Below, piece after piece: positions 9,369 to 45,578 of a stretch of DNA of 64,000 nucleotides. The position numbers and the translations under genes are program-made. The stretch comes from Escherichia coli (GTDB taxonomy: Bacteria; Pseudomonadota; Gammaproteobacteria; Enterobacterales; Enterobacteriaceae). Location of the stretch: assembly GCF_003018115.1 (NCBI RefSeq), contig NZ_CP027457.1. One strand, given 5' to 3'. The first letter of the stretch is position 1, and the number at the start of each line of letters is the position of its first letter. The notes under the pieces are model-generated. The model saw nothing but the letters and a program-made list of their open reading frames with translations, had not been told where the DNA came from and did not search any database.

Positions 9369-12515
<3,147 letters not shown>

Positions 12516-15588: not shown

Positions 15589-16488
15589 TTAGCCTCTAAC
15601 CTTTACCGCTTTACGCCACCGCAAGCCAAATACATTGATATACAGCCCGGTCATAATGAGCACCGCACCGAAAAATTGCAGACCCGTTAAGCGTTCATCC
15701 AACAATAGTGCCGCACTTGCCAGTCCGACTACAGGCACCAGTAACGATAACGGTGCAACCCGCCAGGTTTCATAGCGTCCAAGTAGTGTTCCCCAGATCC
15801 CATAACCAACAATTGTCGCCACAAAAGCCAGATACATCAGAGACAAGATAGTGGTCATATCGATAGTGACCAGACTGTGAATCATGGTTGCGGAACCATC
15901 GAGAATCAGCGAGGCAACAAAGAAGGGAATGATTGGGATTAATGCGCTCCAGATTACCAGCGACATCACCGCCGGACGCGTTGCGTGCGACATGATCTTT
16001 TTATTGAAGATGTTGCCACACGCCCAACTAAATGCTGCCGCCAGGGTCAACATAAAGCCGAGCATCGCCACATGCTGACCGTTCAGACTATCTTCGATTA
16101 ACACCAGTACGCCAAAAATCGCTAAGGCGATCCCCGCCAATTGTTTGCCATGCAGTCGCTCCCCGAAAGTAAACGCGCCAAGCACGATAGTAAAAAACGC
16201 CTGTGCCTGTAACACCAGCGAAGCCAGTCCAGCAGGCATACCAAAATTAATGGCGCAGAACAGAAAGGCAAACTGCGCAAAACTGATGGTTAATCCATAC
16301 CCCAGCAGCAAATTCAGTGGTACTTTCGGTCGTGCGACAAAAAAGATGGCCGGAAAAGCGACCAGCATAAAGCGCAAACCGGCCAGCATCAGCGGTGGCA
16401 TGTTATGAAGCCCCACTTTGATGACCACAAAATTTAGCCCCCATACGACCACTACCAGTATCGCCAACACCCCATCTTTTCGCGACAT
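15589..16488 (-). CDS. eamA: Cysteine/O-acetylserine exporter (DMT family)
   Basis: MSRKDGVLAILVVVVWGLNFVVIKVGL... 299 aa from internal ATG of the 306-aa ORF; two EamA repeats. Confidence 0.9.
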   Translation of the reverse strand: MSRKDGVLAILVVVVWGLNFVVIKVGLHNMPPLMLAGLRFMLVAFPAIFFVARPKVPLNLLLGYGLTISFAQFAFLFCAINFGMPAGLASLVLQAQAFFTIVLGAFTFGERLHGKQLAGIALAIFGVLVLIEDSLNGQHVAMLGFMLTLAAAFSWACGNIFNKKIMSHATRPAVMSLVIWSALIPIIPFFVASLILDGSATMIHSLVTIDMTTILSLMYLAFVATIVGYGIWGTLLGRYETWRVAPLSLLVPVVGLASAALLLDERLTGLQFFGAVLIMTGLYINVFGLRWRKAVKVRG

Positions 16489-26288: not shown

Positions 26289-27749
26289 TTACTTCACGGA
26301 ATATTTCGCCACGGTCGCTTTCGCGCCATGCGCTAATAAAGACAAGTACGCTTCCGTCACTTTTGCAGTAAACAAACTATTGTCTGGCAAATCATCACCA
26401 AAGATCGCCTTAATCGCCAGCAATGACTGGACGCGCGCTTTCCCTTCAGCACTACTTTGTACAGCCTTCTGAATAACAGGTAACAGTGGGTCACTGATTT
26501 CAATCGGATTTCCCTGTTCATCAACACCACCGACATAACGCATCCAACCCGCGACGCCCAGCGCCAGCAGATCGAACTTGCTGTCATGCGCCAGATGCCA
26601 GCGAACAGAATCCAACATCCGCTGTGGCAATTTCTGGCTGCCATCCATCGCAATCTGCCAGGTTCGATGACGTAACGCCGGGTTGCTATAGCGTGCAATT
26701 AATCGGTTAGCGTAATCTTGCAAATCAACGCCCTGCACTTTCAGCGTCGGCGCTTGTTCCTGCAACATCAAGCCATACGCCGCATGACGATAATGTTCAT
26801 CTTCCATACAGTCATTAATGTGCTGATATCCGGCAAGATAACCCAGATACGCCAGGAATGAATGACTGCCGTTGAGCATGCGCAACTTCATCTCTTCATA
26901 AGGCAGTACATCGCTAACCAGTTCTGCTCCCGCTTTTTCCCATTCCGGACGTCCGGCTACAAAGTTATCTTCGATAACCCACTGGCGGAAAGGTTCACAG
27001 GCAACGCCAGCAGGATCGCGCACACCGGTAAGTTGTTCGATTTTCGCCAGCGTATCCTCTGTCACTGCGGGCACAATACGGTCCACCATTGTTGATGGGA
27101 AAGTCACGTTATCTTCGATCCATTGTGCCAGTTTTACATCAACGGCTTGCGCGTAGGAAGTGACAACGTCACGCATAACATGACCGTTTTCTGGCATGTT
27201 GTCACATGACATGACGGTAAATGCGGGAAGTCCTGCCGCTTTACGGCGAGCCAGCGCCTCAACAATCACCCCTGTTGCTGTTTTCGGCTGGTGGGGATTT
27301 TGCACGTCGGTAACGACCATCGGGTGATCGAGCATTAACTGTCCGGTCGCCGGAGAGTGTAAATACCCTTTTTCGGTGATTGTCAGAGAGACAATCGCGA
27401 TTTGCGGTTCACACATCGCAGCCAACACGGTTTCTAAGCCATCTATCTGTACGTGCAAGGCTTTTTTAACGACGCCAACGACGCGAGCCGTCCACGCATC
27501 GGCCGACATTTCCGCAACGGTATAAAGATTATCTTGCTGTTGTAAATCGGCAATTTGCTGTTCGCCGCCGATTAAGTTGACCTCATAATATCCCCAGTCA
27601 CTGAAATGTTCTGTAGCAAGAATATCGGCATACACGCCCTGATGCGCACGGTGAAATGCACCAAAGCCTAAATGAACAATTCTTGGGGCCAGGTTATTAC
27701 GATCATAAACAGGGAGTGTCGCTTTTGCTGATAACAAATTATTTCCCAT
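26289..27749 (-). CDS. ydfI: Mannitol dehydrogenase-family oxidoreductase YdfI
   Basis: 486-aa ORF with long-chain mannitol dehydrogenase family features (N-terminal Rossmann GFGAFHRAH). Confidence 0.85.
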
Positions 27750-41104: not shown

Positions 41105-41433
41105 CAGTTCACCACCTGTTCAAACTCTGCGCTGAACTCAACACGCAACATACTGACCCGCGACGACCATTTTGCGCAGGTCACCTTTATCTGCCGCCAC
41201 TCATAAGGCGGCGTCCACAGAAAGGATTTCCAGCCCCCGTGCTCTTCCAGAAACGACTCCAGTACCGTGGCCTCCTCACGGGGGACAGAAAGCGTCACGC
41301 TGTACGTTTTCAGGTTGGCATTCAGCCCGGCAGGCGCTCGCTGAGAATAGCCATCACCAAAGCGCACCTTTCTTACAGAAGGGACCGAAGCCACATCCAT
41401 ACCGGGTTTCACTTTCCAGCGGAAGGTCTTCAT
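41104..41433 (-). CDS. M: Tail tip protein M
   Basis: 109-aa ORF at the lambda M position. Confidence 0.9.
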   Translation of the reverse strand: MKTFRWKVKPGMDVASVPSVRKVRFGDGYSQRAPAGLNANLKTYSVTLSVPREEATVLESFLEEHGGWKSFLWTPPYEWRQIKVTCAKWSSRVSMLRVEFSAEFEQVVN

Positions 41434-43991
41434 CGTCCACCTCCGGAGAACAGGCCACCATCACGCATCTGTGTCTGAATTTCATCACGGGCACCCTTGC
41501 GGGCCATGTCATACACCGCCTTCAGAGCAGCCGGACCTATCTGCCCGTTCGTGCCGTCGTTGTTAATCACCACATGGTTATTCTGCTCAAACGTCCCGGA
41601 CGCCTGCGACCGGCTGTCTGCCATGCTGCCCGGTGTACCGACATAACCGCCGGTGGCATAGCCGCGCATCAGCCGGTAAAGATTCCCCACGCCAATCCGG
41701 CTGGTTGCCTCCTTCGTGAAGACAAATTCACCACGGTGAACAATCCCCGCTGGCTCATATTTGCCGCCGGTTCCCGTAAATCCTCCGGTTGCAAAATGGA
41801 ATTTCGCCGCAGCGGCCTGAATGGCTGTACCGCCTGACGCGGATGCGCCGCCACCAACAGCCCCGCCAATGGCGCTGCCGATACTCCCGACAATCCCCAC
41901 CATTGCCTGCTTAAGCAGAATTTCTGTCATCATGGACAGCACGGAACGGGTGAAGCTGCGCCAGTTCTGCTCACTGCCGGTCAGCATCGCCGCCATATTC
42001 TGTGCAATACCATCAAAGGTCTGCGTGGCTGCACTTTTTACCTGCGACATACTGTCCGTGGCGCTCTCTTCCCACTCACTCCAGCCGGACTTCAGGCCTG
42101 CCATCCAGCTCCCGCGAAGCTGGTCTTCAGCCGCCCAGGTCTTTTTCTGCTCTGACATGACGTTATTCAGCGCCAGCGGATTATCGCCATACTGTTCCTT
42201 CAGGCGCTGTTCCGTGGCTTCCCGTTCTGCCTGCCGGTCAGTCAGCCCCCGGCTTTTCGCATCAATGGCGGCCCGTTTTGCCCGTTGCTGCTGTGCGAAT
42301 TTATCCGCCTGCTGCGCCAGCGCGTTCAGGCGCTCCTGATACGTAACCTTGTCGCCAAGTGCAGCCAGCTGGCGTTTGTACTCCAGCGTCTCATCTTTAT
42401 GCGCCAGCAGGGATTTCTCCTGTGCAGACAGCTGGCGACGTTGCGCCGCCTCCTCCAGTACCGCGAACTGACTCTCCGCCTTCCACAAATCCCGGCGCTG
42501 CTGGCTGATTTTCTCATTTGCTCCGGCATGCTTCTCCAGCGTCCGGAGTTCTGCCTGAAGCGTCAGCAGGGCAGCATGAGCACTGTCTTCCTGACGATCG
42601 CCCGCAGACACCTTCACGCCGGACTGTTTCGGCTTTTTCAGCGTCGCTTCATAATCCTTTTTCGCCGCCGCCATCAGCGTGTTGTAATCCGCCTGCAGGA
42701 TTTTCCCGTCTTTCAGTGCCTTGTTCAGTTCTTCCTGACGGGCGGTATATTTCTCCAGCGGCGTCTGCAGGCGTTCATAAGCCTTCTGCGCCTCTTCGGT
42801 ATATTTCAGCCGTGACGCTTCGGTATCGCTCTGCTGCTGCGCATTTTTGTCCTGTTGACTCTGCTGCTCAGCCTTCTTTCGGGCGGCTTCAAGCGCAAGA
42901 CGGGCCTTTTCACGATCATCCCAGTAACGCGCCCGCGCTTCATCGTTAACAAAATAATCATCCTTGCGCAGATTCCAGATATCGTCCGCTTTCTTAAACG
43001 CGGCCTCTGCCTTAATCAGCATCTCCTGCGCGGTATCAGGACGACCAATATCCAGCACCGCATCCCACATGGATTTGAATGCCCGTGCTGTCCTGTCTGC
43101 CCAGGTTTCCAGCGTGCCCATGTTCTCTTTCAGGCGGCGGGTCTGGTCATCAAACCCTTTCGTTGCGGCCTCGTTCGCCGCCTGCAATGCCCCGGCTTCA
43201 TCGCCGGAACGCTGCAACTGAGCAACATACGCAATCTGCTCCGCCGTCACGTTATGGAACTGGCGTGCCATCGCCGTCAGCCCCGACGTCGGGTCTGTGG
43301 TCAGCTTCCCGAAGGCTTCAGCGACCTTGTCCACCTCCACGCCGGATGCAGAGGAGAAACGCGCCACACTCTGGCTGATGGACGCAATCTGAGCCTCACC
43401 GCTTACCCCCGCCTTAACCAGTGCGCTGAGTGACTCGCTGGTCTGGTTAAACGTCAGCCCTGCCGCCTGCCCGGCTCTGGACAGGACCAGCATACGATCT
43501 GCCGTCAGTCCCGCCTGATTGCCGGAAAGGACCAGCGTTTTGTTGAAATCGGACAGGGTTGAGTTGCCCTGATACCAGGCATACGCCAGCGCTCCGGTCG
43601 CCACCGCCAGCGAGGTAGCCCCCACCATCGGCAGGGTGATCGCACCGGCAAGCCCCCGGAACATGGGGATCATCCCGCCGAAGGAGTCCTTCACCTGACC
43701 CCCCTGTTGCAGCAGGATCAGCCACGGACTTTGCCCGCCTGCAAGCTGCGTGGCCACGTCGGTGAACTGTGCAGGCAGCATACGCATGGCGGCTTTATAC
43801 TGCCCGACGGAAATCCCCGCTTTCTGTGCAGCCAGCGCCTGTCGGCTCAGCGACTGTTCAACGACTGCCGCTGTTTTTTTCGCATCAGTTTCCGTACCGG
43901 AAAAATGACGCCTGACTCTGGCCATCTGCTCGTCAAATCTGGCCGCATCCAGACTTAAATCAACGACCAGATCGCCTACCGGTTCAGCCAT
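41430..43991 (-). CDS. H: Tail tape measure protein H
   Basis: 853-aa ORF, same length as lambda H, coiled-coil rich with Gly-rich C-terminal region. Confidence 0.9.
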   Translation of the reverse strand: MAEPVGDLVVDLSLDAARFDEQMARVRRHFSGTETDAKKTAAVVEQSLSRQALAAQKAGISVGQYKAAMRMLPAQFTDVATQLAGGQSPWLILLQQGGQVKDSFGGMIPMFRGLAGAITLPMVGATSLAVATGALAYAWYQGNSTLSDFNKTLVLSGNQAGLTADRMLVLSRAGQAAGLTFNQTSESLSALVKAGVSGEAQIASISQSVARFSSASGVEVDKVAEAFGKLTTDPTSGLTAMARQFHNVTAEQIAYVAQLQRSGDEAGALQAANEAATKGFDDQTRRLKENMGTLETWADRTARAFKSMWDAVLDIGRPDTAQEMLIKAEAAFKKADDIWNLRKDDYFVNDEARARYWDDREKARLALEAARKKAEQQSQQDKNAQQQSDTEASRLKYTEEAQKAYERLQTPLEKYTARQEELNKALKDGKILQADYNTLMAAAKKDYEATLKKPKQSGVKVSAGDRQEDSAHAALLTLQAELRTLEKHAGANEKISQQRRDLWKAESQFAVLEEAAQRRQLSAQEKSLLAHKDETLEYKRQLAALGDKVTYQERLNALAQQADKFAQQQRAKRAAIDAKSRGLTDRQAEREATEQRLKEQYGDNPLALNNVMSEQKKTWAAEDQLRGSWMAGLKSGWSEWEESATDSMSQVKSAATQTFDGIAQNMAAMLTGSEQNWRSFTRSVLSMMTEILLKQAMVGIVGSIGSAIGGAVGGGASASGGTAIQAAAAKFHFATGGFTGTGGKYEPAGIVHRGEFVFTKEATSRIGVGNLYRLMRGYATGGYVGTPGSMADSRSQASGTFEQNNHVVINNDGTNGQIGPAALKAVYDMARKGARDEIQTQMRDGGLFSGGGR

Positions 43992-44822
43992 ACCGGACTC
44001 CTCCTGCGATCCCTTCTGATACTGTCATCAGCATTACGTCATCCTCCGTCATGTCCGCCACATCCGGGGAAGCGGGGATAACTTCATTCCCTTCCGGGCC
44101 AAAGCGGACGCCTCCGGCAAGCCCTGCCGCTTTCTGCATCAGCACATCATCTTCAGGCTCTTCGTCAGCCTCACGCCGGTTCAGCAGACTGAAATCCAGC
44201 GGATGCATATCCGGATCGCTGAAAAACAGGCTGAGCACGGTGTACGTCAGCCCGGAAAAGTGCATATCCAGCAGAACATCATGAAAATAATGGGTACTGT
44301 AAAAGCGGTGCCAGTCGGCATACTCCGTGGATGACATCCCGGCAAGCATGGCACGCCAGTCGGGTCGCCCCATCTCTCGCGCCAGTTTCAGGGCAAAACT
44401 CAGCTCACCATCGAACACTTTCCCGCAGAAACAGGCTCTGCAGGCCCGGCGTCCTCTGTCTGTTCAGGAGCATCATTCACCACAAACTCATACATACCGG
44501 ACAGCCGGTACACCACGTTTTCAGCATGAGAAATTGCCTCCGTGGGCCAGGTGGTAAGCACTTCCTGCTCAATCTGTTTAACGGCTTCATTCATGGAAGG
44601 CAGCTTTGTCTTCTTCGGATGGTTATGCCACAGGGACATCGCCACCAGAAACGCGCCGGTTCTGATGGCGTCTTCCACAGTAAACTTCCGGTTGCTGTCT
44701 GACTCCGCCTGTTCTGCCTGCCGTTTCATCAGGGCGAGATGCTCAATACGCTGCAGGGCTGACAGTTCAGAAAGCGTGACGGTCACACCGTTATGTTCAA
44801 ATGATTCGGTTTTCAGGAACAT
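43984..44822 (-). CDS. GT: G-T fusion tail assembly chaperone made by -1 programmed ribosomal frameshift
   Basis: -1 frame ORF (43984-44418) opens exactly at the GGGAAAG slip site (plus 44418-44424) near the end of G. Confidence 0.8.
44400..44822 (-). CDS. G: Tail assembly chaperone G
   Basis: 140-aa ORF MFLKTESFEHNGVTVTLSELSALQRIEHLALM...; slippery heptamer G GGA AAG six codons before stop. Confidence 0.9.
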   Translation of the reverse strand: MFLKTESFEHNGVTVTLSELSALQRIEHLALMKRQAEQAESDSNRKFTVEDAIRTGAFLVAMSLWHNHPKKTKLPSMNEAVKQIEQEVLTTWPTEAISHAENVVYRLSGMYEFVVNDAPEQTEDAGPAEPVSAGKCSMVS

Positions 44823-44837
44823 CTCTGACTCCCCGGA

Positions 44838-45578
44838 TTAACTGGCGGTGACGGTGATTTCTGCAACCGCAGCAAACTCACCATTACCGGATACAACCGG
44901 AATGTTGACCTTGCCTGCAGCAACGCCGTTCACGGTGATGGTCATACCACTGACCGACACGGTGGCTTTTGTTTTATCCGCAGACACCGCACGAAAGCTC
45001 TTGTCGGTTACGCCCTCCGGCTGGAAGGCCACGGTCAGCGTGGTGCTCTGCCCTTTCACCACCGAGGTGCTGGCAGGCGTCACGGTCATGCCGGTTGCCG
45101 CTGTTACCGTGCTGCGATCTTCTGCCATCGACGGACGTCCCACATTGGTGACTTTCACCGTGCGGGTGATCACTTCCTTCGCCGTCACCGCCTTACCGAT
45201 ACTGCTGACCCAGCCACGGAACACATCGACCGTGCCGTTCGGGAAGCGGATTTTATAGGCACGGGTATCGCCTTCATTAAACCACGCCAGCAGCGCCTGC
45301 TGCCCCTGCTCTCCGGGCATCCACGCCAGCGTGAAGCTGGTATCTCCGGCAGATTTCTGCCCCTGCCCGGTCGCAGTCCAGTCTGCATCTTCATCATCGA
45401 GATAGCTGTCGTCATAGGACTCAGCGGTCAGTTCGCCGGGCGTCAGGTCTTTAACTTTTGCCAGACGCGACCAGTCAACGTCTGAAAGCGGATTCGCATA
45501 AGGGTCACCGCTCCCCTTATAAACCCACAGGGTGGTCCCGGCACCTTTCACCGGCATTGTAGGATTTGGTACAGGCAT
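44838..45578 (-). CDS. V: Major tail tube protein V with C-terminal Ig-like domain
   Basis: [24 protein letters not shown]... 246 aa from internal ATG of the 256-aa ORF. Confidence 0.9.

What the first reader, a model, noticed from the sequence alone, without database searches (positions are those of the whole stretch)
44400..44430. Conserved G-T -1 frameshift signal
The heptamer G GGA AAG sits six codons before the G stop, and the -1 frame opens exactly there and runs to the H start, reproducing the lambda G/G-T arrangement.
Basis: partly seen in the sequence, partly recalled or inferred. Interest (0 to 1): 0.25.

Follow-up and report, generated by a model that had tools for sequence, protein, structure and literature searches.

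The report
Lambda G/G-T tail-chaperone frameshift site

Summary
GGGAAAG lies at 44424..44418, in phase as G GGA AAG in a 140-codon G gene (44822..44400). Five sense codons separate AAG from the G stop. The -1 frame runs 144 codons past the slip to a TGA at 43986..43984, overlapping the H start (43991) by 8 nt. One detail is loose: the -1 frame opens 13 codons upstream of the heptamer, not exactly at it.

The region is 98% identical to lambda J02459 9633-10633, with an identical slip site, and 100% identical to many E. coli chromosomes. The proteins hit the curated G and T families. The flanking genes are the tail tube gene V and the tape-measure gene H.

In all 88 related loci where the site could be located, a slip-prone heptamer occupies the same column (GGGAAAG, AAAAAAG or GGAAAAG). 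Many relatives have no start codon in the -1 frame before the conserved T peptide, so T can only be reached by frameshifting.

A 71-nt helix starting 7 nt downstream is conserved, but I could not separate it from protein-coding constraint.

Verdict: already known, correctly identified, low interest. RefSeq still annotates G and T as two separate genes.

The parts
44418..44424 (-). Slippery heptamer G GGA AAG (Gly-Lys in both frames), the site of the -1 shift
   Evidence: Identical to lambda. The same column holds GGGAAAG, AAAAAAG or GGAAAAG in all 88 relatives where the site could be located.
44400..44822 (-). Gene G, tail assembly chaperone, 140 aa; stop TGA at 44402..44400
   Evidence: PF06894 E=1e-59 and TIGR01674 E=3e-63. 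Annotated gpG in the identical E. coli copy.
43984..44418 (-). T segment in the -1 frame. It is translated only as the C-terminal 144 residues of the 279-aa G-T fusion, join(44822..44418, 44418..43984).
   Evidence: PF06223 and TIGR01715 E=4e-55. All 5 substitutions against lambda fall on third positions of the -1 frame.
44400..44463 (-). Stretch in which the G frame and the -1 frame are both open; it contains the heptamer
   Evidence: Stop map
41430..43991 (-). Gene H, tape measure protein, 853 aa. Its ATG overlaps the T stop by 8 nt and is preceded by GGAGGAG.
   Evidence: PF06791 and PF09718.
44838..45578 (-). Gene V, major tail tube protein, immediately upstream of G
   Evidence: PF16461 and Big_2. 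Start placed from the annotation of the 99.996% identical copy.
44340..44410 (-). Candidate 71-nt RNA helix starting 7 nt 3' of the heptamer. Its role as a frameshift stimulator is not established.

Best explanation
This is the programmed -1 ribosomal frameshift signal of the tail assembly chaperone genes G and T of a lambda-type prophage, a Qin-type element in an E. coli chromosome.

Ribosomes translating G mostly terminate at the TGA five sense codons after the heptamer and make gpG (140 aa). A few per cent slip back one base. This happens when tRNA-Gly on GGA and tRNA-Lys (anticodon mnm5s2UUU) on AAG re-pair with GGG and AAA. Those ribosomes then read GTG TTC GAT ... in the -1 frame for 144 more codons and make the 279-aa fusion gpG-T.

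The G part of both proteins binds the tape measure protein H. The T part of the rare fusion recruits the tail tube protein V. The fixed slippage rate therefore sets the roughly 30:1 G:G-T ratio that tail assembly needs.

Shown here: the sequence anatomy, orthology to lambda, conservation of the slip motif and its position, and the fact that T has no usable start of its own in relatives. Inferred from published lambda experiments: that slippage occurs, its rate, and the protein functions.
For: (1) Anatomy. The heptamer is in phase, the G stop follows five sense codons after AAG, the -1 frame stays open for 144 codons, and T overlaps the H start.

(2) Orthology. The DNA is 98.1-98.2% identical to lambda and the slip region is identical. 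Identical copies exist in E. coli chromosomes, and at least one copy of the region is found in 3704 of 5426 complete genomes.

(3) Families. PF06894 + PF06223 and TIGR01674 + TIGR01715. The pair lies between the tail tube gene V and the tape measure gene H.

(4) Conservation. Among the 88 related loci where the site could be located (51 distinct sequences, protein identity down to about 50%), the same column holds GGGAAAG in 43 distinct sequences, AAAAAAG in 4 and GGAAAAG in 4. In 50 of the 51, the G stop comes 5 sense codons later. N15's record annotates this position as the slippery sequence.

(5) T cannot start on its own. In relatives the GTG is replaced by GTC, GCA or GCC. Phi80, mEp043 and Kp4865-4 have no ATG/GTG/TTG in the -1 frame for 24 codons. 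Yet the peptide xFxGELxFxLKLARE is conserved from the slip onward.

(6) The -1 frame is coding. All 5 substitutions in T against lambda are at third positions of that frame. The one change in the overlap is Thr->Met in G but synonymous in T.

(7) Literature. Lambda uses GGGAAAG with about 4% slippage and a 30:1 ratio. G binds H and T binds V. Slippage depends on thiolation of tRNA-Lys (PMC3296357, PMC5009743, PMC7618472). G GGA AAG is highly shift-prone in E. coli (PMC5009743, PMC6924986).
Against: No expression data exist for this copy. The window ends inside the prophage, so the immunity and integration regions are unseen and inducibility is unknown. A GTG in the T frame does exist here (44418..44416), which is why PGAP and the original lambda record list T as a separate CDS. 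The only Shine-Dalgarno-like bases before that GTG are GGGA, just 2 nt upstream. No clear stimulatory element was established.
Confidence: 0.96

Rival explanations
1. G and T are two independently translated genes. T would initiate at the GTG at 44418..44416, as drawn in the original lambda record and in RefSeq, and the heptamer would be incidental.
For: The ORF finder and PGAP both start T at this GTG. J02459 lists T as a separate 144-aa CDS.
Against: The GTG is absent in every relative outside the close lambda group (GTC, GCA, GCC). Several have no start codon in the -1 frame for 24 codons. The T peptide is nonetheless conserved from the slip site onward. The only SD-like bases are 2 nt from the GTG. 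Published work detects G and G-T in lambda (PMC3296357, PMC5009743).
Confidence: 0.02
2. The frame change is made at the RNA level, by transcriptional slippage of RNA polymerase on the A run, rather than by the ribosome.
For: Some relatives carry six A's (AAAAAAG) at the site. Transcriptional slippage is known in other bacterial genes (PMC4256274).
Against: This copy and lambda have only three A's, far shorter than the homopolymer runs that support transcriptional slippage (my knowledge of that literature). The strict phase (X XXY YYZ) and the invariant A AAG are signatures of tRNA re-pairing. Lambda's slippage rate responds to tRNA-Lys U34 thiolation (PMC3296357).
Confidence: 0.01
3. The signal is an unused remnant. 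The prophage is defective, so the late operon, and with it the frameshift, is never expressed in this host.
For: The element sits at the Qin locus, which I recall as a defective prophage in K-12. In the near-identical strain 6409 copy the antiterminator gene is cut by IS1 and the tail fibre gene by IS3.
Against: In the window the antiterminator region is uninterrupted and matches genomes with an intact ydfT. The 26-kb late region is 99.996% identical to a copy with no pseudogene flags from nohA to J. This rival concerns use, not identity. The signal would still be the G-T frameshift site.
Confidence: 0.25

Closest known systems
Phage lambda G / G-T programmed -1 frameshift (Levin, Hendrix & Casjens 1993; J02459 9711..10133 and 10115..10549)
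   Same: Same heptamer and same phase. The G stop follows five sense codons after AAG. The T stop overlaps the H start by the same 8 nt. G is 140 aa, T adds 144 aa and H is 853 aa in both. Overall there are 16 differences in 851 aligned bases, none in the heptamer or the 12 bases either side.
   Different: Five amino-acid changes in G: Q70K, Q73K, M74L, N116D and T138M. One in T: D->E, at residue 232 of the G-T fusion. One substitution (C->T at 44410) turns the first C-G pair of the candidate downstream helix into U-G. The host context is a Qin-type prophage rather than lambda itself.
Conserved tail assembly chaperone frameshift of long-tailed dsDNA phages (Xu, Hendrix & Duda 2004)
   Same: Two overlapping ORFs lie between the major tail gene and the tape measure gene. 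The second is reached by a -1 shift at a slippery heptamer near the end of the first. This is the founding member of that class (PMC5009743).
   Different: Nothing; it belongs to the lambda subgroup. Relatives sampled here vary the heptamer (A AAA AAG in the Stx1/VT1-Sakai type, G GAA AAG in the N15/phi80 type) but keep the position.
E. coli dnaX and IS-element -1 frameshift signals (A AAA AAG plus stimulators)
   Same: Tandem slippage relies on the single E. coli tRNA-Lys reading A AAG (PMC5009743, PMC6924986).
   Different: Those signals reach much higher efficiency using an upstream SD-like element and a downstream stem-loop. Here no SD-like element is seen in the 20 nt upstream. The downstream helix is unproven. 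That fits the low (about 4%) rate reported for lambda.

Membership tests
Lambda-type tail assembly chaperone G/G-T programmed -1 frameshift | Two overlapping ORFs located between the major tail tube gene and the tape measure gene | tested here: met
   V (PF16461) 44838..45578, G 44400..44822, T 43984..44418, H (PF06791, PF09718) 41430..43991, all on the minus strand
Lambda-type tail assembly chaperone G/G-T programmed -1 frameshift | The upstream ORF product belongs to the gpG family | tested here: met
   PF06894 E=1e-59 over the full profile. TIGR01674 equivalog at 211.8 bits against a cutoff of 74.45.
Lambda-type tail assembly chaperone G/G-T programmed -1 frameshift | The downstream ORF is in the -1 frame and belongs to the T family | tested here: met
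   Frame map. PF06223 E=6.5e-14. TIGR01715 equivalog at 184.9 bits against a cutoff of 77.35.
Lambda-type tail assembly chaperone G/G-T programmed -1 frameshift | [quoted passage not shown] | tested here: met
   G GGA AAG at 44424..44418, phase confirmed, 5 sense codons before the stop. Conserved in position in all 88 loci where the site could be located.
Lambda-type tail assembly chaperone G/G-T programmed -1 frameshift | The downstream ORF has no independent translation start | tested here: inconclusive
   This copy has a GTG at the last base of the heptamer, preceded only by a poorly spaced GGGA. Relatives lack any start codon there yet conserve the peptide. That argues the GTG is incidental. 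Initiation was not measured.
Lambda-type tail assembly chaperone G/G-T programmed -1 frameshift | A fusion protein is actually produced at a few per cent of the short product | not testable with these tools
   Reported for lambda's identical signal: about 4%, a 30:1 ratio (PMC3296357, PMC5009743). No data for this copy.
Lambda-type tail assembly chaperone G/G-T programmed -1 frameshift | Both products, in the right ratio, are required for tail assembly | not testable with these tools
   Xu et al. 2013 and 2014, as summarised in PMC5009743 and PMC4256274
-1 frameshift signals with a stimulator (dnaX / IS type) | A stable stem-loop or pseudoknot lies 5-9 nt 3' of the heptamer and is needed for efficiency | tested here: inconclusive
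   A 71-nt helix starts 7 nt downstream with z = -2.9 to -4.8 in six lineages. It shows 97% pairing and one clade-level compensatory switch. But it ranks only 37th of 1381 windows on the same mRNA. The 95-nt fold has z = -0.59. The synonymous-rate dip extends over the whole T core.
-1 frameshift signals with a stimulator (dnaX / IS type) | An SD-like element lies about 10-14 nt upstream of the heptamer | tested here: not met
   The upstream 20 nt, cctgcagagcctgtttctgc, contain no GGAGG-like run and are not conserved in relatives

The most novel reading that the evidence does not exclude
The 71-nt helix at 44410..44340 (-), beginning 7 nt after the heptamer and maintained across lambda-, Stx- and N15/phi80-type relatives, may be a real but weak stimulator. 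It would tune the G:G-T ratio. In that case this copy's C->U change at its first base pair would slightly lower slippage relative to lambda.
Probability: 0.15. Interest if true: 0.3.

Novelty: already known. Interest (0 to 1): 0.06.

Why it matters
It matters little as a discovery. The lambda G-T frameshift has been a textbook case since 1993, and this copy is 98% identical to lambda with the signal unchanged.

There is some practical value. RefSeq/PGAP still annotates G and T as two separate CDSs in the E. coli genomes inspected here, and the region occurs in 3704 of 5426 complete genomes. In those annotations the 279-aa G-T fusion protein is missing, and a probably non-existent free 'protein T' is listed instead.

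The survey also gives a clean comparative argument that T is reachable only by frameshifting. Relatives lack any start codon there but keep the peptide.

Tried and rejected
(1) Heptamer enrichment. GGGAAAG is not over-represented in the window, at 9 copies against 7.6 expected. The signal lies in phase and position, not in count.

(2) Rfam scan of 43800..45000. The only match was a chance hit to an archaeal snoRNA at E=0.62, and no frameshift element was found.

(3) Solved structures. No PDB chain matches the G-T fusion by sequence.

(4) Downstream RNA stimulator.
- The 95-nt fold is not better than shuffles, z = -0.59.
- RNAalifold and pair counting on 8 and then 35 distinct sequences show a well-kept helix. 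It has only one clade-level compensatory change, and one pair is broken in three of the four N15/phi80-type sequences.
- Folding the exact 71 nt gives z = -3.1 to -4.8, but I chose those boundaries after the fact.
- An unbiased scan of 1381 windows on the same mRNA ranks it 37th, and 2.3% of windows have z <= -3.
- A synplot-style analysis of 73 distinct G-T coding sequences shows synonymous variation falling from about 1.5 to about 0.4-0.5 at the slip site. It then stays at 0.5-0.8 to about codon 210, so the dip is not specific to the helix.
- Conclusion: inconclusive, and not claimed.

(5) Independent T initiation: rejected.

(6) Other long -1 extensions in the window (53076, 62086, 45051). 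These were not checked. By position, at least two probably lie in an alternative frame over a real gene (inference); two sit in the terminase and ydfU regions.

(7) Primary papers. I tried to read Xu et al. 2013 (PMC3762263), which is not held. Levin et al. 1993 is not in the library. What it reports about downstream sequences could therefore not be checked.

Full report
**What is in the sequence.** The finding's coordinates (44400-44430) cover a feature on the minus strand. Read 5'->3' on that strand, the sequence is ...CCT GTT TCT GCG GGA AAG TGT TCG ATG GTG AGC TGA. The heptamer GGGAAAG occupies 44424..44418. It is in phase as G GGA AAG within a 140-codon ORF, 44822..44400. The stop TGA at 44402..44400 is the sixth codon after AAG, so five sense codons intervene.

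In the -1 frame the last upstream stop is at 44466..44464, and the next stop is the TGA at 43986..43984. That frame is therefore already open 13 codons before the heptamer and continues for 144 codons after the slip. It ends inside ATGGCTGA. The downstream 853-codon ORF starts at 43991 and overlaps it by 8 nt.

**Is it more than chance?** The heptamer alone is not: there are 9 copies in the window against 7.6 expected. The arrangement is. In-phase X XXA AAG motifs occur at 2.6e-4 per codon in long open frames of this window. About 0.005 would therefore be expected in the roughly 20-codon stretch where both frames are open. Among the 74 in-phase X XXY YYZ heptamers in open frames of at least 100 codons, the median -1 extension is 8 codons, against 144 here.

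**Identity.** The 1-kb region is 98.1% identical to phage lambda J02459 9633-10633. It is 99.6% identical to phage phiSTEC1575-Stx2k and 100% identical to many E. coli chromosomes. A copy of the region is present in 3704 of 5426 complete E. coli genomes.

Aligned with lambda, there are 16 differences in 851 bases, none in or next to the heptamer. Lambda's record has G at 9711..10133, T at 10115..10549 and H from 10542, the same geometry.

The G part matches PF06894 (E=1e-59) and TIGR01674. The T part matches PF06223 and TIGR01715, both above their curated cutoffs. The neighbours are the tail tube protein V and the tape measure protein H.

The window itself is E. coli core chromosome from 1 to about 25 kb. 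From about 25 kb to the window's end it is a Qin-type lambdoid prophage with a complete lambda-like late operon.

**Conservation and the test of the two-gene rival.** I collected 12 loci from annotated phages and 80 from viral contigs. In all 88 loci where the site could be located (51 distinct sequences), the same column carries a slip-prone heptamer. It is GGGAAAG in 43 distinct sequences, AAAAAAG in 4 and GGAAAAG in 4. In 50 of the 51, the G stop follows five sense codons later. The N15 record annotates this very position as the slippery sequence. The junction lysine is invariant in the protein alignment, while the linker before it is variable.

The GTG that PGAP and the original lambda record use as the T start is the last base of the heptamer plus two more. 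In relatives it is GTC, GCA or GCC. Phi80, mEp043 and Kp4865-4 have no ATG, GTG or TTG in the -1 frame for 24 codons. Yet the peptide xFxGELxFxLKLARE is conserved from the slip onward. T can therefore be reached only from G.

Substitutions support this. All five differences from lambda in T fall on third positions of the -1 frame. The single change in the overlap alters G (Thr138Met) but is silent in T.

**Mechanism.** By orthology with lambda, most ribosomes terminate and make gpG. About 4% slip back one base on G GGA AAG and make the 279-aa gpG-T, giving a ratio of about 30:1. The G moiety binds the tape measure protein and the T moiety binds the tail tube protein. Neither is found in the virion (PMC5009743, PMC3296357).

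The slip depends on the single E. coli tRNA-Lys (mnm5s2UUU). Loss of its thiolation raises slippage and lowers phage yield (PMC3296357, PMC7618472). G GGA AAG is among the most shift-prone heptamers in E. coli, and G GAA AAG is less so (PMC5009743, PMC6924986). None of this was measured for the present copy.

**A possible stimulator.** No SD-like element lies upstream and Rfam finds nothing. RNAalifold proposes a 71-nt helix (44410..44340) beginning 7 nt after the heptamer.

It is 97% paired across 35 distinct sequences. Most variation is wobble-compatible, and one G-C to A-U switch separates two clades. Folded alone it gives z = -3.1 to -4.8 in six lineages. Three controls weaken it:
- The 95-nt context gives z = -0.59.
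- In an unbiased scan of 1381 windows of the same mRNA it ranks 37th.
- The drop in synonymous variation that starts at the slip site continues across the whole conserved T core.

I leave it as an unproven possibility.

**Verdict.** The feature is the founding example of the tail-chaperone frameshift class, present here in essentially lambda's own sequence. It is already known and of low interest. The one useful by-product is that RefSeq annotation of this locus still lists G and T as separate genes.

Noticed in passing
window 43984-44822 (-); L004 20079-20917: RefSeq/PGAP annotates G and T as two separate CDSs, with T starting at the GTG inside the heptamer. There is no 'programmed frameshift' note, although the IS1 and IS3 transposases in the same record carry one. 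The 279-aa G-T fusion is therefore absent from the annotation.
   Followed up: partly
L009 1021-1027 (N15); L010, L011, L012: N15, phi80, mEp043 and Klebsiella phage Kp4865-4 carry G GAA AAG at the homologous column. This is not a canonical X XXY YYZ heptamer and is described as less slippery (PMC6924986). Kp4865-4 also has its G stop one codon after AAG instead of five.
   Followed up: partly
window 44340-44410 (-): A 71-nt helix starts 7 nt 3' of the slip site and is kept in all lineages sampled. The window has U-G where lambda has C-G at its first pair. Evidence for function is inconclusive.
   Followed up: yes
window 44855-44935 (-), 43910-43990 (-), 43140-43215 (-): These are the strongest local RNA folds on the late mRNA strand in the 7-kb scan, with z about -4.1 to -4.7. 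One is at the 3' end of V just before G. One covers the T/H junction, including the H start codon and its Shine-Dalgarno. One is inside H. N15 annotates a stem-loop between its V and G equivalents.
   Followed up: no
window ~25000-64000: This is a Qin-type prophage with a complete lambda-like head and tail operon. It is 99.996% identical over 26 kb to E. coli strain 6409, but lacks that strain's IS1 in the antiterminator gene and its IS3 in the tail fibre gene. It also carries cspB, cspF and cspI, relBE and hokD. Window 1-25000 is core chromosome (dcp, sad).
   Followed up: partly
window 26438-26444 (-) and 16339-16345 (+): Two further in-phase slippery heptamers, GGGAAAG and AAAAAAG, lie in open frames of more than 100 codons. 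Their -1 extensions are 49 and 30 codons. They are probably chance or in a non-coding frame.
   Followed up: no
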